64,000 bases of DNA, taken from positions 165,286 to 229,285 of the forward strand of contig JACKBV010000002.1 in NCBI GenBank assembly GCA_020634315.1, written 5' to 3'. This document shows, in pieces, positions 25,301-57,129 of the stretch; positions within the stretch are counted from its first letter, which is position 1; every line of letters begins with the position of its first letter. Origin of the DNA: Ardenticatenaceae bacterium (GTDB lineage: Bacteria > Chloroflexota > Anaerolineae > Promineifilales > Promineifilaceae). The position numbers were made by a program, and so were the translations under genes. The notes under the pieces are model-generated. The model saw only the letters and a list, made by a program, of their open reading frames with translations. It made no database searches and was not told where the DNA came from.

Positions 25301-25437
25301 GCACCGTGCCGCCGTTCACCGAGAAGTGGACGATTCGCGGCGCTGGCTGCCACAATTTCCGCGTGGTGGCGGTGGATGCGGCGGGAAATGAGACGGAGGG
25401 AACGGCCGTTCCCGTGTGCCTGGTCGAACGCAACTAA
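22396..25437 (+). CDS. pbpC: PBP1C-like bifunctional penicillin-binding protein (GT51 transglycosylase + transpeptidase + C-terminal Ig-like domains)
   Basis: GT51 motifs EDKSFWENPGYD, GGSSITQQLVKN and RKAEELVLARQLTQTYSKEQILEWYLN. Transpeptidase SSFKP (SxxK), SYN and KTGTTND. N-terminal TM. Start uncertain (ORF open from 22339). Confidence 0.8.
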   Translation: MPKPTRIMQWRYRRLKRTRRGGQSLRRSGCITGLVLLALFGVVLLIGVVGVTAVAAYFTQDLPAITDLEKLGQDTSATFETSKIYAWGDPKPDGSRDLVLIYEVIDPLGGDRQWLTLEQIPQSIIDATVAIEDKSFWENPGYDVEGIGRAFYEFLILGGDVQGGSSITQQLVKNTLIAPDRRVVGDDVGLDDYRRKAEELVLARQLTQTYSKEQILEWYLNTNFYGNLAYGIEAAARVYFDKSASELTLAEASLLAAIPQSPALNPIDNPDDAKERQALVLEAMVNAGNITLEQSAAAQFAPVQVAPGIEERFDIIAPHFALYVRQQLEQMFGPELVLRGGLRVYTSLDLQMQRQAECVARAQVAQLSGQVGELLPADERAACPALNFLPSLNSADVGVDRNVNNAAVIALDPTTGEIRAMVGSLNYWDQTIDGSFNVAVDGLRQPGSSFKPFTYLTALSQGYTAATMLLDVETDFGTPYNGSAYVPQNYDRLFHGPMRLRQALGNSYNVPAVQAMSWVGVDKVIRTAHSLGITSLDAGPNAYGLSLTLGGGEVKLLDMVYAFSVMDNMGVMIGQPRAETEQRLGFRTLDPVAILRVEDSEGNVLYEYNQPQRREILTPQLAFLMNDMLSDRSARCAAFGCPNVLELPDNRPAAVKTGTTNDYRDAWTIGYTPQLAVGVWVGNTDNSPMDTVPGSKGAAPIWHALMSWGLQDEPVQLWSEPSGVVERSVCDISGLLPTSFCPTVSEWFIVGTEPAVFDNIYQEFAINRENGRLATIYTPPDLIERKIYKVYPEAAADWVRENEIEQPPTEYDTINVPPEGGDVAILSPRPFAYVQGQVAISGTVNIDNFAYYRLAYFEGLTPTDLRTIADTVTEPVANGVLGIWDVENLNGLYTLLLTAVRQDGSFEEVSLPLTVDNTPPAAEILFPLPNQEIFTDEEWVIIQAQASDDLSLARVEFFVDNAGVPFAISTVPPFTEKWTIRGAGCHNFRVVAVDAAGNETEGTAVPVCLVERN

Positions 25438-34258: not shown

Positions 34259-34759
34259 CTAGCCGATTTCGGCCAGCACTTCATCGCGCAGCACGCTTTG
34301 GTTGGTGCTGACATGAACGGCCGTTACCACACCACCGCGTGGCGAGCGGATTTCATTCTCCATCTTCATCGCTTCCAGCACCAACAACGGCTGCCCGGCC
34401 ATCACCGTCTCGCCAGCCTGCACCAACACCTGTGTCACCAACCCTGGGATGGGTGCTTTGACGCGCCCGTCACGGCTGCGCGGACGCGCCACAGCCGCCT
34501 CTAAGTCGCGCACTTCCAAGTTGTGCAAGCCGCTGTATGTTTTAATCCAGCGCAACTGCTCGTCAAAGACAATTTCGTAGGGACGGCCGTTTACAATCAT
34601 CCAATCAATATTCGCCACTGAATGATTCGGGGGCGGAACTTGCACCGACAAGGGCACGCCATCTACCAGCACGGTAACGGCCGTTCCATTCCAATGCATC
34701 ACATCCAACGCTACCTCAAACAACTGCTCTTCAATCGTTACCAATAACTTATTCATCAT
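34259..34759 (-). CDS. Biotin carboxyl carrier protein (biotinyl domain) of acyl-CoA carboxylase
   Basis: GQPLLVLEAMKMENEIRSP biotinylation motif (AMKM). GAGGAGG Shine-Dalgarno before ATGATG at 34759/34756. Confidence 0.8.
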   Translation of the reverse strand: MMNKLLVTIEEQLFEVALDVMHWNGTAVTVLVDGVPLSVQVPPPNHSVANIDWMIVNGRPYEIVFDEQLRWIKTYSGLHNLEVRDLEAAVARPRSRDGRVKAPIPGLVTQVLVQAGETVMAGQPLLVLEAMKMENEIRSPRGGVVTAVHVSTNQSVLRDEVLAEIG

Positions 34760-34766
34760 CCCCTCC

Positions 34767-36248
34767 TCACGACGCCAGCCGCCGACTGGCACGATGCCAG
34801 CCCGACTGCGTCCGTGGCGACACCGTTGGGCTTTCCGGCGCATTGCGGCGCAAATACAAAATTGCCGCTATCGCCGCCAGATCACGCAAATGCTCTTGCA
34901 AATCCACAAATTCACCCAACGGCTGCCGCAGCAAATCCGTCGTATACGCCCCTTTGATAAACGCCGACGACGTAAAAACACGCTGCAACACAGGCAAATT
35001 CGTCGCCAACCCGGTCAATTTCAAACCTTCCAACGCCCGCTGCATTCGCTGCAAACAAAGCTGCCGGTCAGCGCCCCACACCGACAATTTGGCAAGCAGC
35101 GGGTCATACGTATCAGGAACCCGACAGCCACAATACACATATGTGTCTACGCGAATCTCTGGCCCGCCCGGCAAACGCATCATGTCCACCTGTCCGGGGC
35201 TGGGCAAGAAATGGTTCCAGGGGTCTTCCGCGTTGATCCGGCACAGCATCGCCCAGCCTTGCGGTTGCACATCCTGCTGCGTCCATCCCAATGGCTCCCC
35301 GGCAGCAATGCGAATTTGCTCGCGCACCAGGTCCAGGCGCGTCACCAATTCTGTCAATGGATGCTCCACCTGAATCCGCGCTTTAATTTCAGTAAAGTAA
35401 AATTGCCCGGCTTCATCGACGAGGAATTCAACGGTTCCGGCATTTTGATAATTAAAGAGACGGGCAATGGCAACGGCCGTTTCACACAACACATGCCGCT
35501 GCTCCGGCGTCAAACTCGGCGAAGGCGTTTCCTCCACCACCTTGCGATTCCCCAGCACCAACGACCCCTCCCGGTCGCCCAAATGCACCAGATTCCCTTG
35601 CCCATCCCCCAACACCTGCACCGCCACCTGATGTGCCGGTAAAATCGCCCTTTCCAGATACACCTCTTGGCTGCCAAAAACCACACGCGATTCCGCCTGC
35701 GCCCGCTGCATCGCCCGCAGCAATTGCTGCGGCGAACGCGCCAGCCGTTCCCCTGGCCCACGCCCGCCATTACACGACTTAATCACCAGCGGATATTCCA
35801 ATTCACCCGCCGCCGCACGCAGCGCCGCCAAATCATCAACACCAAACGAAATCGGCGAACTCATCACCGTAGGAAAGCCAGCGGCGCGTACCGTTGACAA
35901 AGCCGCCAATTTATCGCGCACACCTTGCACAACCTCCACCGGTGGGCCAATAAAAGCCAGCCCCGCCATCTGGCAAGCACGAATAAAACCCACATCTTCC
36001 GCCAGAAAACCATAACCGGGATGGATGGCATCCGCGCCACAGCGCTGCGCCAGCTCAATGATCGCCGCGCCATCCAAGAAACCTTCATCGCTCACCAGTT
36101 CCACACATTCATCCGCCAGGCGCACATGCAATGATTGCTGATCGGCCGCTTCATACACAGCAACGGCCGTAATCCCCATTTCACGGCACGTATGCACAAT
36201 CCGCACCGCAATTTCCCCCCGATTGGCAATGAGTATCTTCTTAAACAT
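34767..36248 (-). CDS. accC: Biotin carboxylase subunit of acetyl/propionyl-CoA carboxylase
   Basis: MFKKILIANRGEIAVRI ATP-grasp N-terminus. Stand-alone biotin-carboxylase length of about 490 aa. Confidence 0.9.
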   Translation of the reverse strand: MFKKILIANRGEIAVRIVHTCREMGITAVAVYEAADQQSLHVRLADECVELVSDEGFLDGAAIIELAQRCGADAIHPGYGFLAEDVGFIRACQMAGLAFIGPPVEVVQGVRDKLAALSTVRAAGFPTVMSSPISFGVDDLAALRAAAGELEYPLVIKSCNGGRGPGERLARSPQQLLRAMQRAQAESRVVFGSQEVYLERAILPAHQVAVQVLGDGQGNLVHLGDREGSLVLGNRKVVEETPSPSLTPEQRHVLCETAVAIARLFNYQNAGTVEFLVDEAGQFYFTEIKARIQVEHPLTELVTRLDLVREQIRIAAGEPLGWTQQDVQPQGWAMLCRINAEDPWNHFLPSPGQVDMMRLPGGPEIRVDTYVYCGCRVPDTYDPLLAKLSVWGADRQLCLQRMQRALEGLKLTGLATNLPVLQRVFTSSAFIKGAYTTDLLRQPLGEFVDLQEHLRDLAAIAAILYLRRNAPESPTVSPRTQSGWHRASRRLAS

Positions 36249-36322
36249 ACAGTTGAATCCTTTAGCGCAGCCGCAGTATGGCTCTAACGAACCATCTCAC
36301 AAACGCACTCTCTCACGCCCCA

Positions 36323-37870
36323 TCACATCGGCGAAATCCCATGCTTGCGGGGGACATGCCGGTCGCGCTTTGACAGCGTCACTTCCAGCGAACGAATCAA
36401 GATGCGGCGTGTGTCGCGCGGTTCAATCACATCGTCAATCAAGCCGCGTGACGCCGCCACATAAGGATTGTTGAACTTCGTCTCGTAATCCTGCACCAAT
36501 TCTTGCCGCTTCAGATGCGGATCGGCCGCTGCTTGCAAATCGCGGCGGAACAAAATGTTCACCGCCCCTTCCGCGCCCATCACGGCCAATTCCGCATTCG
36601 GCCACGCATAGAGCAAATCGCCGCGCAATCCTTTGCTGCTCATCACACAGTACGCGCCACCATAACTCTTGCGCAAAATGACCATCAACTTGGGCACAGT
36701 CGCTTCGCTGTACGCATAAATCATGCGTGCCCCATTGCGAATAATGCCGCCATACTCCTGATCTTTGCCGGGCAAAAAGCCAGGCACATCTTGCAAAGTG
36801 ATAATGGGAATGTTGTACGCATCGCAAATGCGAATGAAGTGCGCCGTCTTGATGCTGGCCTGAATGTCAATGCAGCCAGCCAACACCATCGGCTGATTGG
36901 CGACAAAGCCAACTACCCAACCATTTAAGCGGCCAAAACCGACCACCATGTTTTCTGCCCATAACTGGTGAATTTCAAAGAAACGGCCGTCATCCACCAA
37001 CGTCGTAATCACCCGCCGCACATCATACGGTTTGTGCGGGTCTGTCGGCACAATTTGCTCCAATTCCGGGCAGCGCCGCTGCGGATCATCGAGCGGCTTG
37101 ACATAAGGCGGGTCATCCTGGTTATTTGATGGCAAATAACTGAGCAGCGTGCGCACCTGCTGCAAACATTCGCGGTCATCACGCGCCAAAAAGTGGCAGA
37201 CACCGCTTTCCTGGCTGTGAATCAGGCCACCCCCCAGCTCCTCAAGCCCCACTTCCTCCTGCATCACCGATTTCACCACATCTGGGCCGGTGATGAACAT
37301 GTAGCTGTTTTCCGTCATGAACACAAAATCGGTCAGCGCTGGCGAATAGACCGCGCCACCGGCGCAGGGTCCCATAATCACCGACAACTGCGGGATAACG
37401 CCAGAAGCCTCGCAGTTGGCGTCAAAAATCTGCGCATACCCGGCCAAACTGTCAACGCCTTCCTGAATGCGTGCCCCGCCTGAATCATTCAGGGCAATAA
37501 AGGGTGCGCCATAGCTCAAAGCCATTTTCATCGCCTTGACAATCTTCTGCGCGTGCATTTCCCCCAGCGACCCGCCCATGACAGTGGCATCTTGGGCAGC
37601 AACAAAGGCGCGACGGCCGTTTATTTCACCAAACCCCGTAATCACACCATCGCCATAGCGGGACGTCTTGCCACCGACATACGTCTCCACGCGCGGCGTC
37701 ACCAACGTATCAATCTCCGTAAAGGTATCCGGGTCAAACAGCAAATTCACCCGTTCGCGTGCCGTCAGCCGTCCCTTTTTGTGCTGCTGCGCCACATCTT
37801 TTTCCGTGCCGTAAGCAATCTCCTTACGTTCGCGCAACGCTTTTACGTAAGCTTCCATCTCTTGCGCCAT
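36323..37870 (-). CDS. Acyl-CoA carboxylase carboxyltransferase (beta) subunit, PccB/AccD5-like
   Basis: EKDVAQQHKKGRLTARERVNLLFDPDTFTEIDTLV is the canonical PccB N-terminus. GGAGG Shine-Dalgarno then ATG 37870. Confidence 0.9.
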   Translation of the reverse strand: MAQEMEAYVKALRERKEIAYGTEKDVAQQHKKGRLTARERVNLLFDPDTFTEIDTLVTPRVETYVGGKTSRYGDGVITGFGEINGRRAFVAAQDATVMGGSLGEMHAQKIVKAMKMALSYGAPFIALNDSGGARIQEGVDSLAGYAQIFDANCEASGVIPQLSVIMGPCAGGAVYSPALTDFVFMTENSYMFITGPDVVKSVMQEEVGLEELGGGLIHSQESGVCHFLARDDRECLQQVRTLLSYLPSNNQDDPPYVKPLDDPQRRCPELEQIVPTDPHKPYDVRRVITTLVDDGRFFEIHQLWAENMVVGFGRLNGWVVGFVANQPMVLAGCIDIQASIKTAHFIRICDAYNIPIITLQDVPGFLPGKDQEYGGIIRNGARMIYAYSEATVPKLMVILRKSYGGAYCVMSSKGLRGDLLYAWPNAELAVMGAEGAVNILFRRDLQAAADPHLKRQELVQDYETKFNNPYVAASRGLIDDVIEPRDTRRILIRSLEVTLSKRDRHVPRKHGISPM

Positions 37871-37990
37871 TCTCAATCCTCCGCTCCAGGTAATGCAATT
37901 TGGCAAACCACACTACCTGTATCCCATCCGGGATACTGTTGTTTTTTCTATGTACTGCTGTAATTTCCGTAAAACTTTGTATTCGTGGCT

Positions 37991-38686
37991 CTAAGCTGCC
38001 AGCGTCAGGACAAATCCATCCAGAACACGCCACCACCCTTGCAGCGGCGGCGCAACCCGTAAACGGCTGGCGTCTAACTCGATGGCAAACGGCGTCCACG
38101 CTTGTGGTGGTACGGCCGTTACCGCAAACAAACACGTCACACAACGCGTATCAACCATCAACCCAACCTGCAACGCCTTCAACGCCGCTTCCTTCGCACT
38201 CCAAATCGCCGTCACCAGCGTCGCCTGCATCTCCGGCACAGCTTGCTGCACCAAGTCCTGCTCCACCGCCGTAAAATAATCCTGCACAAACTGCGGCGAA
38301 CGCGGCGCAATTTGCTCAATATCCGCGCCAATCGGCGGATTGCGCCGCGGCAGCGCCGCGCAAAATGCATGGCTGTTTGAATGACTGATGGAAATGCTCG
38401 GCAGGTCAGCCCGTGCCACAGCGCCACATTGTACCACCGGAGCATGGGTATGACCGTTCAACACCTGCAACTCCGCCAACGGAACCTCGGTGCCACAGCG
38501 CTCGCGAAGCACCTGTTGCAGCAAATGCTTTGCCGTCCAACGCCCTAACAACCAATCCCGCCGCCGCTTTTCTGTGCGCAATCGGGCAAAATGTGCCGCC
38601 TCTGCCGCTCCCAGCAATCCTGCCGGGGGCATGCCCTGCGCCAACCCTGGAAACGCTGCTGCCGTTTGTACAAGCCAGTTGATCAT
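37991..38686 (-). CDS. Sfp-type 4'-phosphopantetheinyl transferase
   Basis: GADIEQI (G-x-D-x-E), FTAVEQD ... WSAKEAALKAL (W..KE...K motif). Immediately downstream of the PKS. Confidence 0.8.
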   Translation of the reverse strand: MINWLVQTAAAFPGLAQGMPPAGLLGAAEAAHFARLRTEKRRRDWLLGRWTAKHLLQQVLRERCGTEVPLAELQVLNGHTHAPVVQCGAVARADLPSISISHSNSHAFCAALPRRNPPIGADIEQIAPRSPQFVQDYFTAVEQDLVQQAVPEMQATLVTAIWSAKEAALKALQVGLMVDTRCVTCLFAVTAVPPQAWTPFAIELDASRLRVAPPLQGWWRVLDGFVLTLAA

Positions 38687-38758
38687 ATGCCTTGTATTCC
38701 ATGTCCCGTAATCGGCAACCGATGACCCGATTACCGATTACGGATTATCAATTGCCGC
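38687..38758 (-). other. Structured PKS-PPTase intercistronic spacer: CGGTAAT heptamer repeats plus a 10-bp inverted repeat CCGTAATCGG...CCGATTACGG
   Basis: Minus-strand RNA reads AUAAUCCGUAAUCGGUAAUCGGGUCAUCGGUUGCCGAUUACGGG. Confidence 0.45.
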
Positions 38759-41700
38759 TCACGACAGCGGTCGTGCCACCGTGCGATAACCTTGCAGTTC
38801 AACAAACACCACGCCATCGTCGTCGACAACCTGCCCGGCAAAAGTCTCGCCATCGTCGTCTGTGCGCAGCAGCGCGTAAAGACGTTTGCCGGCCGCCTCT
38901 TGTGGCTGTCGCTGCGCCGTGACCGCGCCAATGCCCAAGGGGAAACCCATTGCCTGCTTTACTTCTTGCGTCCACAACGCCGCCGCCTGGAAACAAAGTT
39001 CTACCAATCGCGGAGCCATTAACGAAGTGGCATCTGCCGGGTCGGTATTGGGCGGCAAGGTGGCAGGCAGCAAGCAAACGGCCGTTTCCCCCACCACCTT
39101 TGCGCGTTCAATCACCTGATACGCCGGGCCATGAAAGAAAGATTCGTAAATCGTCTCCGCCACAATCGGCAGCGATTCCGCCGCCGGTGGCGTGAAGGCA
39201 ATCGTTGGCGCTGCCATGGCCGCCGTGCCCAAATGCACCTGCGCCGCAAAATGCTGCTGCGTTCGCTGCGGCAGCCCGTCGCGCACCGGTTTGGTGACGG
39301 AATGCAGCGTTGTTTGCGCCAACAACTGCCCCGGCGCAGGCAGTTCCAGCACAACATTCAGGTGCAGTGTGCGCGGTTCATTGCGGAAAAACTTGAATGC
39401 GCCGGACATGGTGACATCGGTAACGGCCGTTACCCGTCCCTCAGGCATCGCGGCCAACGACGCCGCCACCAACGCGGCCTGCGCCATCGCCTCCGTCGCC
39501 ATCACCCCTGGCAGCCAAGGCGTGCCCGCATCGGGGGCGTGGTCATACAAAAAGGGTTGGCGCGTCGGGTCAAGCGTCGTTTCCACCGCCAATCCACCGT
39601 ACAACATCGCCCCTTGCAACGTGCCCACCATCAGCAAATCGCCAAACTTCTCTTGCCGCCACGCATTGGCCTGCGCCACATCCAAACCACCCGTCTCATC
39701 CCATTCCTGTGTCAACAGGCCCAGCGCACCGCCAACTACCAGTTCGCCGCCGCCATACAGCAGTTCGCGCCGCACAGTGGGAATTCCCACCGCCGTTGGC
39801 AGCATTTCGATGCCTGCCATCTCCATAATCTTGGGAATCGAGCCACGCGTCGCCATGCCAATTTCGCCCCAGGCTGTCCAGTCCAGAGCAATGCCGCGCG
39901 TCTCCGGCCGCCAGCGGCGCAGGCTGCTTGTCACCTTGCACAGCAAATCATTGGCCGCGCTGTAATCCGTCTGCCCATTGTTGCCAAAACGCCCGGCCAC
40001 CGAGCTAAAAACGACGGTCGCGGCGATAGGCAGATCGTGTGCCGCACGCAGCAAATTGAAGAAGCCATCCGCCTTCACATCAAACACAAGGTCGAATTCG
40101 CGTGCCTCTTTTTTGTCCAACGACCGGCTGATTTCCAGCCCGCCAGCATGAACGAGGGCGTCTATTTTGCCATAGCGAGTGCGGATGTCGGCGATAACGG
40201 CCGTTACCGCTTCCCCATCCAACAAATTAACGCTGTGATAATGAGCCGTACCGCCAGCCGCTTCCACCGCCTCAATCGCCCGCAGCGCCGCTTCCGTCCG
40301 CTCGATTGCCAATAACTGTTTCTCAATCAGCGCCGGTGTGGGCCGTTCGCCAGCTGCTTTAGCCGCCGCAATCAACTGCTGCTTCAACGCCTCTTTGTCG
40401 CTGCGGAACAACTGCACCTGCGCGTCATGCCGCGTCGGCGCGGCAACCAGGTCAAGCAGGTAAAAGATGCCGCCGCTGGCTGCTGCCAGGTCGGCAACGA
40501 TGGCGCTGGTGATGCCGCCAGCCGCCCCGGTGACGACAAAAACCGTGTGCTCATCGAGCGTCAGCGCCGGGGTGTCGGGCAACGGCCGTTCCTGCAAACC
40601 AATCGCCACCCGCTGCTCGCCCACATAGCCCACTTCCACCGCACCGGGGTCTGTTTCCGTCTCGGCCAACAGCGCATCCGCGAAAACGGCCGTTTTCCGA
40701 CTCAGTTCAAAGTCCACAGCCTTCACCAACACATCAGGGCGCTCACGCTTGTACGCCTTGGCAAAGCCAACCACAGCCCCGCCCAAAGGAGCCGTTGCCC
40801 CTGCCGCGCCATAGCCATGCTGCCCGCCCAGGCGCGTAGCCGTCACCAGGAACGTGCCCGGCTGGTTCACCACGTCATACAAAGCCCGCATGGTGGCATA
40901 CAAATTCTTGCTGCGCTGACGATTCAATTCGCGCCAGGCGGCCAGGTCAAGCTCCATCAAATCAGGCTCCGCATCCAACGCCGCCAGCCAATACACCCCT
41001 TGAATCGCGCCAGCATGACGCCACGCAGTCACCTGTGTCACCAACTCCGCCGTTGGCCGCGCCACATCCAAAGCCAACACAGTCGCCCCACGCTTTTCCA
41101 GGCGGCTGATCACGGCCTTGCCGACACCGCCCTGGTCGAGAGCCACAAGCACGCGGCTGTCCGCGCCCAACGTGACCCCCGTCGGTTTACACCAGGCCAA
41201 CGCCGGTCGCAGCACGGCCACCGGCATACGCCGCGGCACACGATTGGCATTTTCCAGGGAAGACGGGGTGATGCGGGTTGAAGCAGGCACAACGCCCGCC
41301 ACTTCCCCCATCACCCCGTCAACTTTTAAATCCGGACGCATTTCGTAAACAAAACCAATCACCTTTTCCAGCGTCGTGTAATCGCGCAAAGCCAAATCGT
41401 CGCGGCGCGGAATGTCAAACTCGCTGCGAATGGCGGCAAATGTTTCTGCCTGTTTCACCGTGTCAATGCCCAGGTCTGCTTCCAAATCCAGGTCTAGCTC
41501 CAACATATCAGGCGGATAACCCGTTTGCTTGGCGACAATTTCCAGCACTTTGGCGGTCACTGCGTCAAATGAACCCGCGTCGGGCGTGGATGGCAGTGTG
41601 GCAACGGCCGTTTCGCTCACCACCTCCGGTTCAGCCGCCACTTTTTGATTGCCCAAATCGGGGCGCATCTCGTAGACAAAGCCAATCACCTTCTCCAGTG

Positions 41701-44700
41701 TGGCATAATCGCGCAATGACAAATCATCGCGGCGCGGAATGTCAAACTCGCTGCGAATGGCGGCAAAGGTTTCCGCCTGTTTCACCGTGTCAATGCCCAA
41801 ATCCGCTTCCAGGTCGAGGTCAAGATCGAGCATATCGGTGGGATAGCCGGTTTGCTCGGCCACAATTTGCAGCACTTTGTCGGCAACGGGATCAGCCACG
41901 GCCGTTTCCAGGGTTGGCTCCGGCAGCGGTGCTGGCGGGGGCGGCGCAGAGGGAACGGCCGTTTCTGCCACCACCTTTTCCACAACCGGCATACGCACCG
42001 GCTCTGGGGCAACGGCCATCGGCGCGGCTTGCACTGGCGGCTCCGGAATAACCATCCGCGCAGGCGCGGTTGTGGGCGTTGGCGCCCCATCCTGCCCCGT
42101 CAAAGTGCGCATGATGGGGCCAGTTCCCGGCTGCCAGCGGCTGGGGAGCGGGTACCGCTGCGGCACGCCGTTGGCCTGGATGCGTAAGATGCGTTTGTTA
42201 ACGGCCGTTTCCACCTGGTCATAGCCGCTGATGTCCTCCAGCCAGCGCCGATATTGCGCCGGACTGTCCACCCGATCCAGTGCGCCAGGGATGCGCCGCG
42301 TCAACGTCATCGCAATTTGTGAACCAAAACCCGCCGCCAGATGCAGCGCATACTGCACCGGATAACGTCCGCCGCGGCTCAAGTTCAACGGCCCCAGGTC
42401 TGGGTCAACTTCCCGGAAATTGGGCACAGGCGGCACAATGCCATATTCCAAAATCTTCACGGCAATGACATCTTCCACACCGACACCCATTGGATGGCCG
42501 GTAAACCCTTTCGTATTGGCGACAATGATTTCACGCGCCACGTCGCCAAACGTGTGGCGCAGCGCTTCCACTTCGGCGGCAGCGCTGCCACCGCGTGCCG
42601 GTGTGTATGTCTCGTGCGACATAAAGACCATCTGCGGAGCCATGGCCTGCCGGTTCAAGCCAAAACGGCGCTCGGCCGATGTCACCAGGCTGTTCATCAC
42701 CTGGGCGATGTGGTGTACGTCCAGACGCGTGCCATGAAATGCGCTGTTGTTTGTTTCACTGGCAAGCAGTTCGACAACGCCGCGCATCCCGCGTTCGCGC
42801 ATGGCATCTTCGCTCTCCACAATCAGCCCCGCCGCGCCCATGCCCATCAACGTGCCATGACGGCGACGATCAAAGGGCAAGGCGACTTCGGCGACACGAT
42901 CTTCGGTCGCTGCCGCACCAACGGCCAGGAAACCGGCACCGACCCATTCCATCAAGTTGTCTCCGGTCACATTGTCGGCGGCAATGATGATGACGCGGCG
43001 GCAACGGCCGTTGCGAATCCAATCTTCAGCAATCGCCACCGCCTGCGCCGTGCTGGCACAAGCCGCATTCACCTGCGTATTGGGGCCGCGTGCGCCGATG
43101 TACTCGGCAAACTGGCTGTGTCCCATTGCCAGGATACGGAACAAAAAGCGGCGATCAAAAATGTATGGCTCGCGCTGCAACGCCTCGCGCAAAGTGTTGA
43201 TGCGCCGATCTAGTTCGCGCAGCGTGTCGGCGTCGCGGGTATAGGCACGCACATCTTGCAGCATTTGCAGTTGATCAAGCCGGTTTTGGAAGGTGAAATA
43301 GCGCCCCATTTCCTCGGCAAAGCGGTCGCCGCCGGGGAAGGCGCTGGCAAAAATGACGCCCGTTTCATCGCGCAATGGTTCTGGCAGCAGCCAGCGATCC
43401 GGCAAAAATTTGTCGGTGGTGGTGCGGCGGAAGGTTTGCACGAGAGGGATACCCGCCTCGCGCAGGGCGTCAAAACCGGCGGCCATTGCCAACTGCGTCG
43501 TGCTGTCCAGCGCCTCGACGAGTTTTTCTGGCACGCCGTACTCTTCGGTTAAGTTGAAATAGCCGGGGCGACCTGCCAACTTGATGACATCGTCGGGGTC
43601 GTTAATGGTCTCGAAACGGCCGTTTCCCTCTGCATCCTTCACCAGGCGCGTGATTTGCTTGGCTAAAATGCGCTGGCGAAAGCGCTCCGGAATCAGGTCT
43701 ACAAACTGCTCGCCGCGCAAAATCCGCAGCGCATTATCCGGGTCCATCACCGATTTTTCCGCGCCGGGCAGCCCCAACCCCGTGCCGCTGATAACCACCG
43801 AGCCGCTGGGGACGGCATTGCGGTCATAGGCCAGCAGTGGCGGCTGCACAGCAGGTGCTTGCGCCGTCGCCGCTTGCTGAATTGCTTGCGTCAATAATTC
43901 GACAACGGCCGTTAACGAGCCGCCATTTTGTGATAAAGCCATGTCCTCATTCCTCTCTACTGATTCGACCAACACCGCTGCCTGCTCGCCGACTGTTTGC
44001 CCATATCCCGCCGCATACAGCGCACATAACGCCATATTCAAACTCGGCAAAGTCCCCGTCTTGGGGTGATTGGTCAAAATCGGCAGCACATCCGTTTGCG
44101 CGGCAAACACATCACGGGCAAACCCTTGCAGCGCCCGCTTGGGGCCAACCTCGACAAAGGCACGCACGCCAGCGTTGTAGAGCGTGTGCAGCCCCTTCAC
44201 CCATTGCACCGGCGAGGCAACTTGCTGTTGCAGCACATCCTTAATGCCCTCCACCGTTGTCGGGTAAAAGCCGCCAGTCAAATTGGCAACAAGCGGCAGT
44301 TTGGGGGGAGCGATGTGCAGCCGGTCAAGTACCTGGCGCAGGGGTTTGCTGGCCGGAGCGACAATTTCTGTGTGGAAGGCGTGGCTGACGGGGATGGGAA
44401 TGGCGCGGTATCCTTTTTCGGTGAACAGTTTAACGGCCGTATCCACCGCTTTACTCGCCCCACCAATCACACTCTGGCTGTGACTGTTAATATTGGCAGG
44501 AACAACATAGCCATCCACCTCGGCTAACGTTGCTTCCACCACATCCAATGGGGCGAGAATGGCCGCCATACGGCCGTTATCCGCCACATTGACCTTGCTC
44601 ATCTCATCGCCACGCGCGGCCGCCGCTTCCAGCGCATCGGCAAATGGCATCACGCCCGCGGCAATCAGCGCCGCATATTCGCCCAGCGAATGCCCCATCA

Positions 44701-46780
44701 CCATGTCCGGCTTAAAGCCATACGTCTCCAGCAATTTCAACATGGCAATGTCCAGCGTCAACATCGCTGGCTGCGTGATTTCCGTCTGCATCAAAGCCAG
44801 TTCCGCCTGCATCATCGCCTGGCGGTCATCGCTGTCCACAAAAATGTAATCGGTGAGCGGCTTGCCCAAAATCGGCGTCATGACGCGGTCGGCCTCGGCA
44901 AACACCGTGGCGACCACCGGCGACAAGGCCACCAGCTCGCGCCCCATATTCACATACTGGCTGCCCTGTCCGGGGAAAAGAAAGGCTAACTTGCCCGGTG
45001 CGGTGCCACGCCCACGAAAAATGCCTTGCGCCTCCAGCGCTTTCCACGCTTTGGCATCGTCGCTCTGGCAAAGGCGCTGCGCTTTTTGCAGCCGTCCCAG
45101 CAGTTCCTCGCGGTCGCCAAAATCAATCAGCAAGCGTTCGGGGGATTGGAGAACGGCCGTTTCCGGCACAACTCGCGGCGGCGTCCAGCCAGCCTGCACA
45201 TCTCGCAGCGCCTTCTCCACCTGCGCCCGCAGGTCAGTGGATGAGGCGGCACCCAACGCCAAAATACCGCGCACAGGTGTTGGCACCTTATCCGCAGCAC
45301 GTTGGCTCCCGACCTGTAAATTTCCATTTCCCCGTGCCTGCGCCGCCGTCGTTTGGCGCTGCGCGGCCAACATCCCCGGCACATGTTCCTCCAACACGAC
45401 GTGAAAATTCGTGCCGCCAAAGCCATAGGCACTGACACCACAGCGGCGCGGTGCGCCAGCCGGTTTTGTCCAGGGCGTAGCCTCGTGAACGAGGTAAAAA
45501 GGTGTGTTGGCAAAATCAATGTTGGGATTGGGCACGGCCGCATTTAACGTGGGCGGCAGCGTCTTGTGGTACAACGCATACACCGCTTTCAGCAGCCCGG
45601 CAGCGCCTGCGCCTGCTTTCAAATGGCCGATGTTGCTCTTGGCCGAACCGAGGCCAATGCTGTGGCGTGGCGCGGCATGGAAAATTTGCGCCAGACTTTC
45701 GACTTCGACCACATCGCCGACGCGGGTGCTGGTTCCGTGCGCTTCCACCAGGGTCGCCGTTGCCGGGTCCAGCCCGGCGCTTTCCCAGGCACGTTGAATG
45801 GCAAGCTGCTGCCCCAACGGATTGGGCGCGGTGATGCCTTTGCCTTTGCCGTCGCTGGCGCCACCAACGCCGCGAATGACGGCGTAAATGCGGTCGCCAT
45901 CTCGTTCGGCGTCAGCCAATCGTTTTAGCAAAAAGGCGGCGGCCCCTTCGCCCATGACAAACCCGTCTGCGCCATCGCTAAACGGCCGTGTTCCGGTCGC
46001 GCTCAATGCGCCAATTTTGCAAAATTTGACGAAGCTGGAGATGCCCATGTTGCGGTCGACGCCACCGGTAACGGCCGTATCCACCTTATGCTCCGTCAGC
46101 AGTTCAATGGCCGCTTCCAACGCCGCCAGGCTCGAAGCACAGGCAGCATCCGTGATGAAATTCGGGCCGCGCAAATCCAGCACATTCGCCACACGCCCGG
46201 AAACGATGTTGGGCAGTTCGCCCGGCATAGAATCTTCAGTGATGGGCGGGAAGACATCGGCAATGACACCCTGATACCCACTGAGAATGGCCTGGCGCGT
46301 GGCGGCAGGCAGTCCGGCAAATTCGGGCACGCTTTCCAGGGCGTGCGCATATTCGGGAAAAGCAATGCGCTGATTGGTGATGTAGTGGAGTTCGCCCCCC
46401 ATAGCCGTGCCCAAGATAACGGCCGTTCGTTCCGTGTTTAACGGCTTTTGCGGATACCCATAATCGGCCAACGCCTCCGCCGCAACCGTGAGCGCCCACT
46501 GCTGCCCCATATCCATCGCGTCCGCCACCTTTGGCGGAATGCGGAAACGCTTCCAGTCAAAATTAAACCCGCGCACCCAACCACCAATTTTGCTGTATGT
46601 TTTGTCTGGCGCTTTGGGGTCAGGATCATAATAATCGGCAATCGACCAGCGGTTTGGCGGCGTCTCGGTAATGCTGTACCGCTTATTGACAATATTTTGC
46701 CAAAACGCCGCCGCGTGCAAAGCATCTGGCAAAATGGCTCCCACCCCGACAATGGCAATCGCGCGTTCTGCACTATCCAT
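38759..46780 (-). CDS. PUFA-synthase/PfaA-like iterative type I polyketide synthase. Inferred domain order: KS - AT - second KS-like - ACP - ACP - KR - DH (2673 aa).
   Basis: KS1 DAACASSL / EAHGTST / KSNIGHL. AT GHSLGE / AFHT. KS2 [14 protein letters not shown] / SHETYT / KGFTGHPMG. Two about 85-aa carrier-like repeats (...[23 protein letters not shown]). KR Rossmann plus YSAAN. PKS-type [24 protein letters not shown] Shine-Dalgarno before ATG 46780. Confidence 0.9.
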
Positions 46781-46800
46781 CGTTTACCTCCTTACTTGAC

Positions 46801-46836
46801 CCGTAGCCCGTCATCCCATTCGATGACGGGCTACGG
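46801..46836 (-). promoter_or_regulatory. Intercistronic 15-bp-stem hairpin (CCGTAGCCCGTCATC CCATTC GATGACGGGCTACGG) between the ACAD stop and the PKS Shine-Dalgarno
   Basis: Directly read. On the mRNA it is preceded by AUAAUCCGUA, as is the PKS-PPTase spacer. Confidence 0.5.
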
Positions 46837-46844
46837 ATTATGGT

Positions 46845-48482
46845 CTATGCCGGGAACGCTTTCACGAGCGCCTCGACCGCACAATCCATGTCGGCAATCA
46901 TGCCCGCCTGTGCCTGGTAAATGGCGGGTAAATTAAGCGAGTTCGCCAGGTTGGGGTCGCTTTGCCCCGCGCCAATGGCCCATTGCAAGCCATCGGCAGC
47001 CACCTTTAGCGCCGCCTGACGGGCATAAATGCGTGCCAGGGTTTGGCGTGTCTCTGTGGTCAGGGGAATGGCTGAGGTGGGGTGGCTTGTAACGCGGGCA
47101 GTGAAGGTAGCGGCCGTTTCCGCCCAGGCCACCCATTCACCCAAACGAAACAACATGTGCTGGTTGCGCGTGAGCCGATCCAGACGGCAGCGCTCCATAA
47201 TGGTCGCCAAGGCACGCAGCGCCAACGCCGCCACATCAGCCCCATTTTGTGGTTCTTCGGCATGAACGGCATCCAACCGTGCCGCCCAATCCTGGTAATA
47301 AGCTCCGCGCGACTTGAGATGCTCCTGCCAACGATCACGAGCAATCGTCCATTCCATAATTTCTGATGTGCCTTCGTAAATCGTTGTGATGCGCACATCT
47401 CGTTTGATTTTTTCCACCATGTATTCTTTGGTGTAGCCATAACCGCCCAACGCCTGGATCGCATCTTCGGCGGCGCGGTTGCCCGCTTCGGTGGCCGCAT
47501 ATTTGGCGACAGCCCCTTCCGTTTGCAGTCCGTGCCCCCCTTCTGCGTCCAGTCGTTCCGCTACCCATTCGATATAAGCACGCGCCGCTTCCAGGCGTGC
47601 GGCATTGGGTACGAGTAGTTTGTGCGTATACCCTTGTTTCTGGCTGAGCGGCGCACCCGCTTGCACGCGCTCCTGGCTGTAGCGAATGGCGCGACGCAGT
47701 GCTTCCCAGCCCGCGCCCAGGCCAAATGCGCCAACCATCAGGCGGGTGTAGCCAAAAACAGCTTGTGCCTGCGCCAACCCTTTGCCTTCCACGCCACCAA
47801 CGAGCCGATCCGCAGCTACGTGGACATCTTCTAAAAAGAGGGCGGCTGTGTTGCTGGCACGAATGCCGTGTTTGTCTTCCGGTTTGCCTTTGCCAAAGCC
47901 AGGGGCATCGGCCTCGACAATGAACCAGGAGGGGCCACCGGGCGCATTGGCGAGGATGGTATAGATGTCGGCGACGCCGCCGTTGCTGATCCATTGTTTA
48001 CGGCCGTTTAGCGTATACCCCGTCACCACCCCATCTGTGAGCACCGGTTCCGCCTTCGTGCTCAACGAAGCGAGATCGCTGCCTGCCTGCGGCTCAGTTG
48101 CCCCATAAGCCACCAGCAGCGATTCTTCGGCAACGCGCCCCATCCAGTGCCGCTTTTGTTCCTCCGTGCCCCCGACACTGATGGGATCTGTCCCCAAAAA
48201 AGTCGCCAGAACACCGGTGGCGATGCCCAGATCAATGGCGGCCATTAACTCTGAAACACGGTAAATATCATACGCGCCACCACCCAAACCATCATATGCT
48301 TCAGGAATAAAAAGCAAATGAAGACCTAGCTGCATAGGATCATATAATTCTTGCAATACCTGGCGGGGAAATTCGTCATTGTGATCTAGCTCAATGAGAT
48401 AATCAGGCGTGAGTTTACGCTCCGCATACTTTTTGAGCGTGTCCAAGATCATCTCGCGGGTCTCATCGTCCAATCCGGGCAT
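46845..48482 (-). CDS. Acyl-CoA dehydrogenase family protein with a C-terminal extension
   Basis: [15 protein letters not shown] (ACAD signature). FAD/substrate regions. 545 aa. The stop lies 64 bp upstream of the PKS start. Confidence 0.85.
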
Positions 48483-48588
48483 CTTTCACCTTCCTGTCTC
48501 CTTTATCAAGATTCAGGCTCCCCAGGCTTTTATTCAATTTTTGCGAGTTGGTGGCAGTGGCAAAATCGATGATGGGGGCAAAAAAAAA

Positions 48589-48640
48589 GCATCCTCAAAA
48601 GTGCTAACACACTTTAGGATGCTCCCCTTTTGTTTTGTTT
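48589..48640. terminator. Bidirectional terminator-like hairpin (A9 - GCATCCTCAAAAGTG...CACTTTAGGATGC - T-rich)
   Basis: Flanked by GGCAAAAAAAAA and CCCCTTTTGTTTTG. Would terminate the minus-strand cNMP-binding gene. Confidence 0.55.
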
Positions 48641-48803: not shown

Positions 48804-49319
48804 TTATTTGCCCACATTGTTTGCGGTGTCTGACAACATTAACTGGTACTGACGAATGGTTAAGTCAGTGTGGCGAATTTTCAAGGCGAGATCGGCCGCC
48901 AGGTTTTTCATGACTTTATAGCCCAACTCAGGATACGTATTGCACAAAAACATCAGGCGCTCACGGGAAATGCGCAACACATAGGTTTTGTCGCGGCTGA
49001 TGCGAACAGTGGCTGAGCGAATACCCTGATCAACCAATGACACTTCCCCAAACACCTGTCCCGGACGTAATTCGGCGACCACAACGGATTCCATTTCTTG
49101 CTGTGTGGCGGAGACAAATCCCGGATTGACTAAAATTTCAACTGCGCCTTCGCCAATCACGTACATTTCATCCGTGCTTTCGTTTTCTTGGATGAGGATC
49201 TCCCCTTTGCTGTAAATCGCTGGCTCGCAAATGGCAGCAACCAGTTGTAGTTGTGTGTCGGTTAAACTATCGAAAATCTCAGCCAGGGCAAGAATGGGAA
49301 TAACAGGTTTCGTCATCAA
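48804..49319 (-). CDS. Stand-alone cyclic-nucleotide-binding domain protein (no DNA-binding domain)
   Basis: cNMP-binding beta-roll: GEILIQENESTDEMYVIGEGAVEI ... GQVFGEVSLVDQGIRSATV. 171 aa. Confidence 0.7.
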   Translation of the reverse strand: MMTKPVIPILALAEIFDSLTDTQLQLVAAICEPAIYSKGEILIQENESTDEMYVIGEGAVEILVNPGFVSATQQEMESVVVAELRPGQVFGEVSLVDQGIRSATVRISRDKTYVLRISRERLMFLCNTYPELGYKVMKNLAADLALKIRHTDLTIRQYQLMLSDTANNVGK

Positions 49320-56925: not shown

Positions 56926-57050
56926 AGGGTAGAAGGGGAGACAAGCGAGAATGACGTGGAGAGAGGAGGGAAGAGTGTTGAGAGAGAGGGGAGAAGAGGG
57001 TGGAGAGAGGAGGGAAGAAGGAAGAGGGAGGGGGGAAATAAGGTGGATAA
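56926..57050. repeat. About 125-bp polypurine (GA-rich) tract on the plus strand in a divergent promoter region
   Basis: GTAGAAGGGGAGACAAGCGAGAATGACGTGGAGAGAGGAGGGAAGAGTGTTGAGAGAGAGGGGAGAAGAGGGTGGAGAGAGGAGGGAAGAAGGAAGAGGGAGGGGGGAAATAAGG. Confidence 0.6.
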
Positions 57051-57129
57051 CGCTGGTTTTACCTATACATCCTTTTGTTATTATGTTAAAATACGCGCCA
57101 ATAAAGGATGTTTGCATGGGAAGGTTGTG

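What the first reader, a model, noticed from the sequence alone, without database searches (positions are those of the whole stretch)
34259..48482. Minus-strand PUFA-synthase-like PKS cluster: ACAD - PfaA-like megasynthase - Sfp PPTase - acyl-CoA carboxylase (CT, BC, BCCP)
An 8-kb single-polypeptide type I PKS has domain order KS-AT-KS-ACP-ACP-KR-DH.

Upstream, 64 bp away, is an acyl-CoA dehydrogenase gene. A dedicated Sfp-type PPTase gene follows directly, and a complete three-gene acyl-CoA carboxylase that could supply the extender unit lies 3' of it; all are on the minus strand. Between them at 37907-37990 sits a plus-oriented hairpin with a T-run, so a single transcript for all six genes is not established.

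The second complete KS-like domain, with its own active-site Cys (NAACAST), inserted between the AT and the ACPs is not the canonical PfaA (KS-MAT-ACPn-KR-DH) or HglE layout. No PfaB/C/D-like partners are in the window. The product is unknown; candidates are a polyene or long-chain lipid, a glycolipid aglycone or a hydrocarbon.
Basis: partly seen in the sequence, partly recalled or inferred. Interest (0 to 1): 0.75.

Follow-up and report, generated by a model that had tools for sequence, protein, structure and literature searches.

The report
Conserved two-ketosynthase lipid synthase operon
This is a real six-gene operon for a self-contained fatty-chain factory, of a widespread bacterial family catalogued in 2011 but never characterised; the family has three unreported quirks: an acyl-CoA dehydrogenase as obligate partner, two active ketosynthases, and threonine instead of serine at the carrier-domain attachment site.

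Summary
Six co-oriented minus-strand genes encode an ACAD, a 2673-aa KS-AT-KS-ACP-ACP-KR-DH megasynthase, an Sfp-type PPTase, and CT, BC and BCCP.

It is not a one-off. The layout is the 'Type R secondary lipid synthase' catalogued in 2011 in Roseiflexus, Acidobacteria and Elusimicrobium, with unknown product. I find it in at least 597 species genomes.

Three points are new here:
1. The 545-aa VLCAD-like ACAD precedes the megasynthase in 70/70 loci and co-varies with it (r=0.97). Some distant relatives instead carry a fused FabK/PfaD-type ER domain and have no ACAD nearby. Terriglobia place ETF alpha/beta and an Fe-S oxidoreductase beside the ACAD. It is therefore most likely the missing enoyl reductase.
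2. The second KS keeps an invariant Cys-His-His triad, so it is not a chain-length factor.
3. Nearly every carrier domain in the family has Thr, not Ser, at the phosphopantetheine site.

Best reading: a self-contained, iterative, fully reducing fatty-acyl synthase for a secondary lipid, fed by its own carboxylase. The product, the release step and the Thr chemistry are untested.

The parts
46845..48482 (-). Long (545 aa) acyl-CoA dehydrogenase. It has an MCAD-like core with the catalytic Glu (IYEGT, E370) and a 160-aa helical C-terminal extension. Proposed trans-acting enoyl reductase.
   Evidence: Pfam. PDB alignment to MCAD. AF2 model with the C-terminal part at pLDDT about 90; best full-length fold matches are 2z1q, 3owa, VLCAD and ACAD9. 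Upstream of the megasynthase in 70/70 loci, with r=0.97.
46801..46836 (-). 17-pair RNA hairpin in the ACAD-megasynthase spacer, without a U-run.
   Evidence: dG -34 kcal/mol, z -7.6.
38759..46780 (-). Megasynthase of 2673 aa: KS1-AT-KS2-ACP-ACP-KR-DH.
45377..46765 (-). KS1, PfaA-type. Cys214/His348/His386/Lys381.
   Evidence: Invariant wherever the alignment has a residue: 163 of 164 rows, plus one gap.
44105..44983 (-). Acyltransferase with GHSLGE (Ser698) and the HAFH motif, which is the malonyl-specific type by established PKS knowledge.
42281..43828 (-). KS2, a divergent FabF-like ketosynthase with an intact triad: Cys1241 (codon 43058-43060), His1389, His1429 and Lys1424. The 2011 catalogue calls it 'CLF'.
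41657..41890 (-). Carrier domain 1, motif [16 protein letters not shown]. Thr1665 (codon 41786-41788) sits at the canonical phosphopantetheine-Ser position.
41330..41563 (-). Carrier domain 2, with the same motif. Thr1774 is at codon 41459-41461.
39866..41233 (-). Ketoreductase (structural plus catalytic subdomains). Ser2259/Tyr2273/Asn2277.
38780..39595 (-). PKS-type double-hotdog dehydratase. His2414, Glu2594 and Gln2598. This is the least conserved domain.
38706..38743 (-). 18-pair RNA hairpin in the megasynthase-PPTase spacer, without a U-run.
   Evidence: dG -28.6 kcal/mol, z -5.1.
37991..38686 (-). Dedicated Sfp-type 4'-phosphopantetheinyl transferase, divergent from named families.
   Evidence: Found downstream of the megasynthase in 43 of 67 loci that reach the DH domain, and fused to it in some distant relatives.
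37919..37936 (+). It is weak and is not a terminator for the coding strand.
36323..37870 (-). Carboxyltransferase (PccB/AccB type) of an acyl-CoA carboxylase. The ORF is listed to 37906, but the likely start is the ATG at 37870.
34767..36248 (-). Biotin carboxylase.
34259..34759 (-). Biotin carboxyl carrier protein with the EAMKM biotinylation motif. The ORF is listed to 34843, but the likely start is at 34759/34756.
48580..48623 (-). Intrinsic terminator (hairpin plus U9) of the upstream cNMP-binding gene. It marks the 5' boundary of the unit.
   Evidence: dG -28 kcal/mol, z -4.7.

Best explanation
The six genes form one conserved, self-contained factory for a long fatty-acyl chain. It belongs to the family catalogued as the 'Type R secondary lipid synthase'.

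Proposed steps:
1. The CT/BC/BCCP carboxylase makes malonyl-CoA.
2. The malonyl-type AT loads it onto two tandem carrier domains, which the dedicated PPTase has armed.
3. Two catalytically intact ketosynthases extend the chain iteratively: the PfaA-like KS1 and the FabF-like KS2. They probably divide the work by chain length.
4. KR and DH reduce and dehydrate each beta-keto intermediate.
5. The enoyl reduction for which the megasynthase has no domain is done in trans by the VLCAD-like flavoprotein encoded 64 bp upstream. It takes electrons from an electron-transfer flavoprotein rather than directly from NAD(P)H.

The product would be a long, largely saturated acyl chain for a secondary (non-housekeeping) lipid.

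Shown: domain identities, intact catalytic residues, gene linkage and distribution.

Inferred: the reductase role of the ACAD, the division of labour between the two KS domains, chain length, the release step and the final lipid.
For: Domains and genes.

Catalytic residues: all those of KS1, AT (HAFH), KS2, KR and DH are invariant or nearly so (at least 162 of 164) across members from several phyla.

Distribution: the family occurs in at least 597 species genomes.

ACAD linkage:
- It lies upstream on the same strand in 70/70 loci that have upstream DNA, at a median start-to-start distance of 1726 nt.
- ACAD and KS2 identities to the window proteins correlate with r=0.97.
- It is also present in a 44%-identical relative.

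ER displacement: 20 of 150 distant representatives carry an N-terminal NMO/FabK/PfaD-type ER domain fused as ER-KS-AT-KS2-ACPn-KR-DH. The three such loci examined have no ACAD.

Redox partners:
- In about 25 Terriglobia loci the ACAD is preceded by ETF-beta, ETF-alpha and a 700-aa Fer4+CCG Fe-S oxidoreductase.
- Two Chloroflexota loci also have ETF-beta and ETF-alpha directly upstream.
- The best NCBIfam neighbours of the ACAD and of both ETF-alpha subunits tested are the ETF-dependent acryloyl-CoA reductase subunits AcrC and AcrA. AcrB is second-best for the one ETF-beta tested. All are below cutoff.
- PDB relatives include the ETF-coupled reductases Bcd (5ol2) and CarC (6fah).

ACAD type: the catalytic Glu is present. 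The C-terminal helical domain matches that of long dimeric ACADs such as VLCAD.

Carboxylase link: three different forms recur next to family members. These are CT-BC-BCCP in Chloroflexota, a single-chain 1850-aa ACC in Terriglobia and in L090, and BC-BCCP-CT upstream in L088.

Secondary rather than housekeeping role: Shulse & Allen name only Type M and Type S hosts as lacking a complete FAS II.
Against: - ACADs normally oxidise acyl thioesters. ETF plus an Fe-S/CCG oxidoreductase is also the classical beta-oxidation route to quinone, so the direction of electron flow is not established.
- No ETF gene lies in this window or next to most Chloroflexota loci.
- Two distant ER-less relatives (L088, L089) have neither an ACAD nor an ER nearby, so displacement is not universal.
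- No thioesterase or acyltransferase is conserved with the Chloroflexota clusters, so release is unexplained.
- The carrier domains have Thr instead of Ser. Whether they are pantetheinylated at all is untested.
- No product is known for any member.
Confidence: 0.5

Rival explanations
1. The synthase has no enoyl reductase. It makes a polyene or poly-hydroxy/enoyl chain. The ACAD works in its usual oxidative direction, desaturating a saturated starter or the finished acyl chain, and passes electrons through ETF and the Fe-S oxidoreductase to menaquinone.
For: The megasynthase has no ER domain. The ACAD has a canonical dehydrogenase core, most similar to MCAD. The Terriglobia neighbours ETF-beta, ETF-alpha and a Fer4+CCG protein resemble the beta-oxidation electron chain.
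Against: A PKS without an ER leaves no saturated C-alpha/C-beta bond for an ACAD to oxidise, except in a starter unit. Relatives with the same KS-AT-KS2-ACP-KR-DH core carry a fused FabK/PfaD-type ER and lack the ACAD. The ACAD co-varies with the synthase as tightly as an integral subunit would.
Confidence: 0.2
2. The cluster is the housekeeping (primary) fatty acid synthase of this Chloroflexota lineage. It replaces type II FAS and has the cell's main acetyl-CoA carboxylase in the same operon.
For: Conservation is at housekeeping level: 64-75% identity over 2700 aa across Chloroflexota classes, 80% for CT and 78-91% for the ACAD. A carboxylase sits in the operon. Tandem carriers point to high flux. 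No FAS II gene was seen in the window or in about 1 Mb of flanks.
Against: Shulse & Allen list only Type M and Type S hosts as lacking a complete FAS II, which implies that the Type R hosts (Roseiflexus, Koribacter, Solibacter, Elusimicrobium) have one. The 2011 survey reports the family in Roseiflexus but not in any other Chloroflexi, so it is not universal in the phylum. Acyl chains on a megasynthase-bound carrier are not obvious substrates for PlsX/PlsC. I could not scan whole genomes.
Confidence: 0.12
3. The second KS-like domain is a catalytically silent chain-length factor, as labelled in the 2011 catalogue. It would pair with KS1 like the KS-CLF didomain of PfaC or of type II PKSs.
For: Shulse & Allen annotate the position as CLF. 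The domain is divergent, matching FabF at only about 1e-22 to 1e-35, and has an insertion in its N-terminal half.
Against: Cys1241, His1389, His1429 and Lys1424 align with the FabF catalytic residues and are invariant in 164 sequences from several phyla. KS2 is the most conserved part of the protein, at 61-92% identity.
Confidence: 0.08
4. It is an ordinary PUFA (PfaABCD) or heterocyst-glycolipid (Hgl) locus whose partner genes lie outside the window.
For: KS-AT, the tandem carriers, KR and the C-terminal DH resemble PfaA.
Against: The PfaA model scores below its cutoff. No FabA-type DH, PfaB, PfaC, PfaD, HglC/D or glycosyltransferase is in the window or is recurrent in 81 related loci.
Confidence: 0.03

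Closest known systems
'Type R' secondary lipid synthase cluster (Shulse & Allen 2011, PLoS One, PMC3098273)
   Same: A single pfaA homologue with KS-MAT-(KS-like 'CLF')-tandem ACP-KR, a PPTase gene downstream and an occasional ACC gene in the cluster. The hosts include Roseiflexus and Acidobacteria, which are among the closest homologues found here.
   Different: The catalogue does not mention the upstream ACAD, ETF or Fe-S genes, the C-terminal DH, the intact active site of the 'CLF', or the Thr in the carriers. No product or mechanism was proposed.
Bacterial PUFA synthase PfaABCDE
   Same: PfaA-like KS-MAT, tandem carriers, KR, a PKS-type DH and a dedicated Sfp-type PPTase. Both work iteratively on malonyl units.
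   Different: There is no PfaB, no PfaC (KS-CLF-FabA-type DH2) and no PfaD. A second active KS is inserted after the AT. An ACAD stands in place of the FMN-dependent ER. The carriers have Thr. TIGR02813 scores below its cutoff. Without a FabA-type isomerising DH, cis-polyunsaturation is not expected (inference).
ETF-dependent enoyl-CoA reductases of the ACAD family (Bcd-EtfAB, caffeyl-CoA reductase CarC-CarDE, acryloyl-CoA reductase AcrABC)
   Same: These are ACAD-fold flavoproteins that run in the reductive direction on electrons from an ETF. They are among the best family and structure neighbours of the ACAD, and AcrA is the top NCBIfam neighbour of both ETF-alpha subunits tested.
   Different: They act on short CoA thioesters in fermentations and lack the 160-aa C-terminal domain. 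A role on megasynthase-bound acyl carriers has not been described, to my knowledge.
Long dimeric ACADs (VLCAD, ACAD9, Bacillus FadE-type; PDB 2z1q, 3owa, 7s7g)
   Same: An ACAD core plus an additional C-terminal helical domain. These are the best full-length fold matches.
   Different: The C-terminal domains have no detectable sequence similarity. Those enzymes are catabolic. The core of the model used for the comparison has low confidence.
ER-fused relatives found here (ER-KS-AT-KS2-ACPn-KR-DH, with or without a fused PPTase; e.g. P0357, P0270, P0342)
   Same: The same KS2 domain (36-50% identity), the same Thr-type carriers and the same KR-DH tail, with a PPTase adjacent or fused.
   Different: They carry an N-terminal FabK/PfaD-type (NMO) enoyl reductase domain, and no ACAD gene lies nearby.

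Membership tests
Type R secondary lipid synthase (Shulse & Allen 2011) | One pfaA homologue with KS-MAT-(KS-like/CLF)-tandem ACP-KR. | tested here: met
   Pfam domain order.
Type R secondary lipid synthase (Shulse & Allen 2011) | A PPTase gene downstream of the pfaA homologue. | tested here: met
   37991-38686, ACPS domain.
Type R secondary lipid synthase (Shulse & Allen 2011) | Orthology with the Roseiflexus and Acidobacteria members. | tested here: met
   Full-length homologues named Roseiflexus have 69% identity (P0074, P0104). L024 is a Roseiflexus locus and the Terriglobia loci have ACC between the synthase and the PPTase, as the paper describes for Koribacter.
PUFA synthase (PfaABCDE) | PfaA equivalence (TIGR02813 at or above its cutoff). 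| tested here: not met
   927.9 bits against a cutoff of 1010.1. Only KS-AT aligns contiguously.
PUFA synthase (PfaABCDE) | PfaC with FabA-type DH domains, the PfaB AT and the PfaD FMN-dependent ER in the locus. | tested here: not met
   Absent from the window and from the recurrent neighbours of 81 loci.
Heterocyst glycolipid synthase (HglE/C/D) | HglC (KS-CLF-AT) and HglD partners and a glycosyltransferase. | tested here: not met
   None in the window or among conserved neighbours.
Chain-length factor (KS-CLF) | A KS-like domain that lacks the active-site Cys. | tested here: not met
   Cys1241, His1389 and His1429 are present and invariant.
Phosphopantetheine-dependent carrier domain (PF00550) | A conserved Ser at the start of helix II that receives the phosphopantetheine arm. 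| tested here: not met
   The fold family is matched, but the aligned residue is Thr1665/Thr1774. In the related loci the count is Thr 245, Ser 1 and Asn 1. Whether Thr is modified cannot be tested with these tools.
Acyl-CoA dehydrogenase (FAD, catalytic Glu) | The three ACAD domains and the catalytic base in the YEGT motif. | tested here: met
   Pfam. Alignment to MCAD Glu376.
ETF-dependent enoyl reductase (Bcd/CarC/AcrC type) | An ACAD-fold enzyme that receives electrons from a co-encoded ETF and reduces an enoyl thioester. | tested here: inconclusive
   ETF-alpha/beta are adjacent in Terriglobia and in 2 Chloroflexota loci, but not in the window. NCBIfam neighbours are all below cutoff. The direction of the reaction cannot be tested in silico.
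Biotin-dependent acyl-CoA carboxylase | CT, BC and BCCP with a biotinyl-Lys (AMKM) motif. | tested here: met
   Substrate preference is undecided: Cys sits at the PccB D422 position.
Fully reducing type I FAS | KS, AT, ACP, KR, DH and ER activities, plus a release activity. | tested here: inconclusive
   KS, AT, KR and DH are intact. ER activity is only inferred for the ACAD. No TE or transferase is present in the window.

The most novel reading that the evidence does not exclude
The family is a distinct kind of fatty-acyl synthase with two unprecedented features.
1. Its carrier domains are armed on threonine rather than serine by a co-evolved, always co-encoded or fused PPTase. This would insulate them from housekeeping AcpS and AcpH.
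2. Its enoyl reduction is done by a VLCAD-like ACAD that takes electrons from ETF or the quinone pool instead of NAD(P)H. That would be a biosynthetic use of the beta-oxidation redox module.
Probability: 0.3. Interest if true: 0.8.

Novelty: new member of a known kind. Interest (0 to 1): 0.5.

Why it matters
The family is present in at least about 600 species genomes, including abundant soil, sludge and mat bacteria (Chloroflexota, Acidobacteriota). It is conserved at housekeeping level, yet no product is known, so a common environmental lipid may lack a known genetic origin.

If the ACAD is the reductase, this would be a fatty-acid synthase that runs a beta-oxidation flavoprotein module in reverse.

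If the Thr in the carriers is pantetheinylated, the textbook rule that the arm sits on serine has a large natural exception. That would also offer an orthogonal carrier/PPTase pair for engineering.

For genome mining, the cluster should not be counted as a novel PKS or as PUFA potential.

Tried and rejected
Literature:
They covered Chloroflexi with PfaA, KS-AT-KS/KS-MAT-CLF, hglE-KS, ACAD with PfaA and ETF, type I FAS in Chloroflex*, and Thr-phosphopantetheine phrases.
- Only Shulse & Allen 2011 describes the layout. Nothing was found on function, the ACAD link or Thr carriers.
- The Elusimicrobium genome paper (PMC2681670) is not held.

Analyses that were inconclusive or limited:
- CT substrate specificity from the PccB D422 position: the residue is Cys, and other PCC/ACC structures have Ile or Val there.
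- Classifying the ETFs as bifurcating or not from an EtfB motif recalled from memory: not reliable, so dropped.
- The AF2 model of the ACAD (28 close homologues) has a low-confidence core (mean pLDDT 66). Only the C-terminal domain and the overall 'long ACAD' match are used.
- The single-sequence AF2 model of carrier domain 1 has low confidence (pLDDT 58). It is used only to note that Thr35 falls at the start of predicted helix II.
- A search of the flanks of 84 loci for FAS II genes found none, but the flanks are far too short to show absence.

Rejected:
- PfaABCD or Hgl membership.
- The strict CLF reading of the second KS.

Full report
**1. Observation**

The region 34259-48482 holds six minus-strand ORFs exactly as described. 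Pfam and NCBIfam identify them as follows:

| Gene | Coordinates | Size / notes |
|---|---|---|
| ACAD | 46845-48482 | 545 aa; ACAD domains at aa 7-384 plus about 160 extra C-terminal residues |
| Megasynthase | 38759-46780 | 2673 aa |
| Sfp-type PPTase | 37991-38686 | |
| PccB/AccB-type carboxyltransferase | 36323-37906 | |
| Biotin carboxylase | 34767-36248 | |
| BCCP | 34259-34843 | |

The megasynthase domains are:
- KS1, aa 6-468
- AT, aa 600-892
- A second KS-like region, about aa 985-1500
- Two PP-binding domains, about aa 1631-1708 and 1740-1817
- KR, with its catalytic part at aa 2082-2305
- A PKS-type DH, aa 2396-2667

The ACAD-megasynthase spacer is 64 bp. The listed CT and BCCP ORFs over-extend 5'. 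An ATG at 37870 and Met29/30 at about 34759 are the likely starts.

The other window ORFs of 150 aa or more that I scanned are unrelated to lipid synthesis. They include histidine kinases, a subtilase, an alpha-2-macroglobulin, a PBP, PdxS/T, a Bmp-type ABC transporter, peptide deformylase and an amidase. None is a PfaB/C/D, Hgl, thioesterase or glycosyltransferase gene.

The ACAD is 100% identical to a protein from an Ardenticatenaceae (Chloroflexota) MAG.

**2. Transcript boundaries**

- *5' boundary.* A textbook terminator (hairpin plus U9; dG -28 kcal/mol, z -4.7) lies on the minus strand at 48580-48623. It sits between the upstream cNMP-binding gene and the ACAD, so the unit starts with the ACAD.
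However, terminator-like sites in the region are no more frequent than in shuffled sequence (17 against 21), and the spacer does not fold unusually well (z -1.8). On the coding strand it has an A-run before it, not a U-run after it.
- *Other spacers.* Two much stronger coding-strand hairpins without U-runs occupy the ACAD-megasynthase spacer (46801-46836; -34 kcal/mol, z -7.6) and the megasynthase-PPTase spacer (38706-38743; -28.6 kcal/mol, z -5.1).
- *Gene order.* The same order is kept in more than 20 Chloroflexota species. That fits one functional unit. Co-transcription itself is not shown.

**3. The layout is already catalogued and is widespread**

- Full-length homologues have 64-75% identity and differ mainly in carrier number (1-6). 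They occur in Anaerolineae, Caldilineaceae, Ardenticatenaceae, Promineifilaceae, Roseiflexus, Kouleothrix, Oscillochloris, Chloroploca and a Leptospiraceae MAG.
- Shulse & Allen (2011, PMC3098273) defined a 'Type R' secondary lipid synthase. It is one pfaA homologue with KS-MAT-CLF-ACP(3-6)-KR followed by a PPTase gene, found in Koribacter, Solibacter, Elusimicrobium and Roseiflexus. In Koribacter an ACC gene lies between the two. The product is unknown. This is the same family.
- It was the only paper in the library with that domain string. I found no functional study.
The hosts are Chloroflexota, Acidobacteriota, Myxococcota and other 'delta' MAGs, a KSB1/Deferribacteres MAG, Calditrichota, Rhodothermales and others.
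- A profile-free search of 1.8 billion cluster representatives found 670 clusters at E <= 1e-30. These extend down to 36% identity in megasynthases of 2.5-4.0 kaa.

**4. The second KS is not a chain-length factor**

KS2 aligns with FabF-type enzymes. Cys1241 (NAACAST), His1389 (SHETYTP), and Lys1424 and His1429 (NTKGFTGH) sit on the catalytic residues. These four, and the equivalents in KS1, are invariant wherever the alignment has a residue, across 164 sequences spanning the phyla.

KS2 is the most conserved part of the protein: median identity is 77% among the top homologues, and the range is 61-92% overall. It matches no named NCBIfam family above cutoff.

The other domains also keep their catalytic residues:
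- The AT Ser and the HAFH motif, which is the malonyl-specific type by established PKS knowledge
- The KR Ser/Tyr/Asn residues
- The DH His2414, Glu2594 and Gln2598, conserved in at least 162 of 164 sequences

**5. The ACAD is an integral partner**

- In tblastn synteny maps of 81 non-redundant loci, every locus with at least 1.8 kb upstream of KS1 (70/70) has the long ACAD on the same strand directly upstream. The median start-to-start distance is 1726 nt.
- ACAD identity and KS2 identity to the window proteins correlate with r = 0.97. The pair has therefore travelled together, including between phyla.
- A relative at 44% KS2 identity still has the ACAD upstream and a PPTase downstream.
- All-against-all clustering of flanking ORFs shows which families recur. 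They are the ACAD (70 loci), PPTase (35), ETF-alpha (25), a single-chain ACC (24), BC (23), ETF-beta (23), a 700-aa Fer4+CCG Fe-S oxidoreductase (22), CT (21), BCCP (19) and a WS/DGAT acyltransferase (12).
- In Terriglobia the order is WS/DGAT, Fe-S oxidoreductase, ETF-beta, ETF-alpha, ACAD, megasynthase, single-chain BC-BCCP-ACC_central-CT carboxylase (about 1850 aa), and then, where the locus reaches that far, PPTase.
- Two Chloroflexota loci (L008; L009, an Ardenticatenaceae MAG) also have ETF-beta and ETF-alpha directly upstream of the ACAD.

**6. What the ACAD most likely does**

The megasynthase lacks an ER domain. Among the 150 best KS2 representatives, 20 carry an N-terminal NMO (FabK/PfaD-type) ER domain, giving ER-KS-AT-KS2-ACPn-KR-DH, sometimes with a fused PPTase. 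None has a fused ACAD. The three ER-fused loci I inspected (L086, L090, L091) have no ACAD nearby. This looks like non-orthologous displacement at the same position in the unit.

The ACAD has the catalytic Glu of MCAD. Its confidently modelled C-terminal helical domain makes the long dimeric ACADs the best full-length fold matches: 2z1q, 3owa, VLCAD and ACAD9. The core of that model is poor.

Its nearest named relatives include ETF-dependent reductases: AcrC, and Bcd 5ol2 and CarC 6fah. AcrA is the top NCBIfam match for both ETF-alpha subunits tested, and AcrB is second for the one ETF-beta tested. All these matches are below the curated cutoffs.

I therefore read the ACAD as the trans-acting enoyl reductase, fed by ETF. 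The caveats are:
- ACADs usually oxidise their substrates.
- ETF plus an Fe-S/CCG oxidoreductase is also the catabolic route to quinone.
- ETF is not adjacent in the window.
- Two distant ER-less relatives (L088, L089) have neither partner nearby.

**7. Carboxylase**

Three different architectures of biotin carboxylase recur beside family members:
- CT-BC-BCCP, as in the window
- A single-chain ACC in Terriglobia and, together with a biotin ligase, in L090
- BC-BCCP-CT upstream in L088

Independent recurrence argues for a functional link, namely a dedicated malonyl-CoA supply. The CT is PccB/AccB-like. The residue at the S. coelicolor PccB D422 position is Cys, which does not settle the substrate. 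The HAFH motif of the AT points to malonyl units.

**8. An unexpected family hallmark**

Both carrier domains read [21 protein letters not shown] alignments to PigH and to four FAS-type acyl carrier proteins (7e42, 2koo, 2cnr, 7pdi) place the Thr on the phosphopantetheinylated Ser: 'dlgidTv' against 'dlgvdSi' and 'dlgadSl'.

| Sequence set | Residue at the attachment position |
|---|---|
| 81 related loci | Thr 245, Ser 1, Asn 1 |
| 120 database homologues | about 455 DT motifs, no DS |
| Distant KS2-containing megasynthases, including ER-fused ones | Thr throughout; exceptions P0300 (all Ser), P0377 (one Ser) and P0355 (two Thr, one Ser) |

A low-confidence single-sequence model puts Thr35 of the domain at the start of helix II. 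A dedicated PPTase is adjacent to or fused with many members, including distant ones.

I know of no natural Thr-linked phosphopantetheine, and phrase searches found none. Whether the Thr is modified is untested.

**9. Product and role**

With KR, DH and an (inferred) ER but no FabA-type isomerising DH, the expected chain is long and largely saturated. This is inference.

Two observations favour a secondary lipid rather than housekeeping fatty acids. The WS/DGAT gene heads the Terriglobia clusters. Shulse & Allen name only Type M and Type S hosts as lacking a complete FAS II. However, the very high conservation keeps a primary-FAS role for some Chloroflexota open. I could not scan whole genomes.

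No release enzyme is conserved in the Chloroflexota clusters.

**10. Verdict**

It overstates novelty, because the layout is a catalogued, widespread and uncharacterised type.
- The window is a typical new member of that type.
- The obligate ACAD partner, the ER-domain displacement, the intact second KS and the Thr-type carriers are, as far as I could find, undescribed. They make the family a good experimental target.

Noticed in passing
window 41786-41788 and 41459-41461 (Thr1665, Thr1774); all related loci L001-L091: Nearly every tandem carrier domain of this megasynthase family has Thr where ACPs have the phosphopantetheine-bearing Ser (motif DLG[IV]DTVKQAETF). This holds for distant and ER-fused relatives too. 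Among the long distant representatives, P0300 has all Ser, P0377 one Ser and P0355 two Thr plus one Ser.
   Followed up: yes
L053-L083 (Terriglobia loci), e.g. L054 1208-21097: The acidobacterial version of the cluster is WS/DGAT, Fer4+CCG Fe-S oxidoreductase (700 aa), ETF-beta, ETF-alpha, ACAD, megasynthase, then a eukaryote-like single-chain acetyl-CoA carboxylase (BC-BCCP-ACC_central-CT, about 1850 aa), then PPTase.
   Followed up: partly
P0357, P0270, P0342 and 17 other representatives; loci L086, L087, L090, L091: Distant relatives carry an N-terminal FabK/PfaD-type (NMO) enoyl reductase domain fused to KS-AT-KS2-ACPn-KR-DH, sometimes with a fused PPTase. The three loci that include upstream DNA (L086, L090, L091) have no ACAD nearby. 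L090 also has a biotin ligase and a single-chain ACC downstream.
   Followed up: partly
L088 (ENA ERZ25073868 ctg77278, 643-kb contig): A 3133-aa relative (38% KS2 identity) with BC-BCCP-CT directly upstream sits among genes that look archaeal: an EMG1/Nep1-type methyltransferase and a 423-aa RuBisCO-large homologue. The lineage was not determined. A FAS-like megasynthase in an archaeon would be notable.
   Followed up: no
window 46801-46836 and 38706-38743 (minus strand): Very stable perfect hairpins without U-runs (-34 and -28.6 kcal/mol; z -7.6 and -5.1) fill the spacers on either side of the megasynthase gene. They could be RNA processing, stabilising or attenuating elements. A related CGGTAATCGG motif recurs at 34239, downstream of the BCCP gene.
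   Followed up: partly
window 14879-20653 (+) and 22339-25437 (+): A 1924-aa bacterial alpha-2-macroglobulin lies near a 1032-aa bifunctional transglycosylase/transpeptidase (PBP1C-like). This pairing is known in other bacteria. An aminotransferase gene on the opposite strand lies between them.
   Followed up: no
window 48804-49319 (-) and 56956-58872 (+); L086 20388-21005: cNMP-binding-domain proteins lie near the cluster in the window. A Crp-type cNMP-binding regulator lies just after the PPTase in the ER-fused locus L086. This could be coincidence or shared regulation.
   Followed up: no
L054 3300-4200; L011, L021, L026, L031, L072, L084 megasynthase genes: Several MAG loci, mostly long-read assemblies, show frameshift-split ETF-beta or megasynthase genes. 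These look like assembly errors rather than pseudogenes and can distort ORF-based counts.
   Followed up: no
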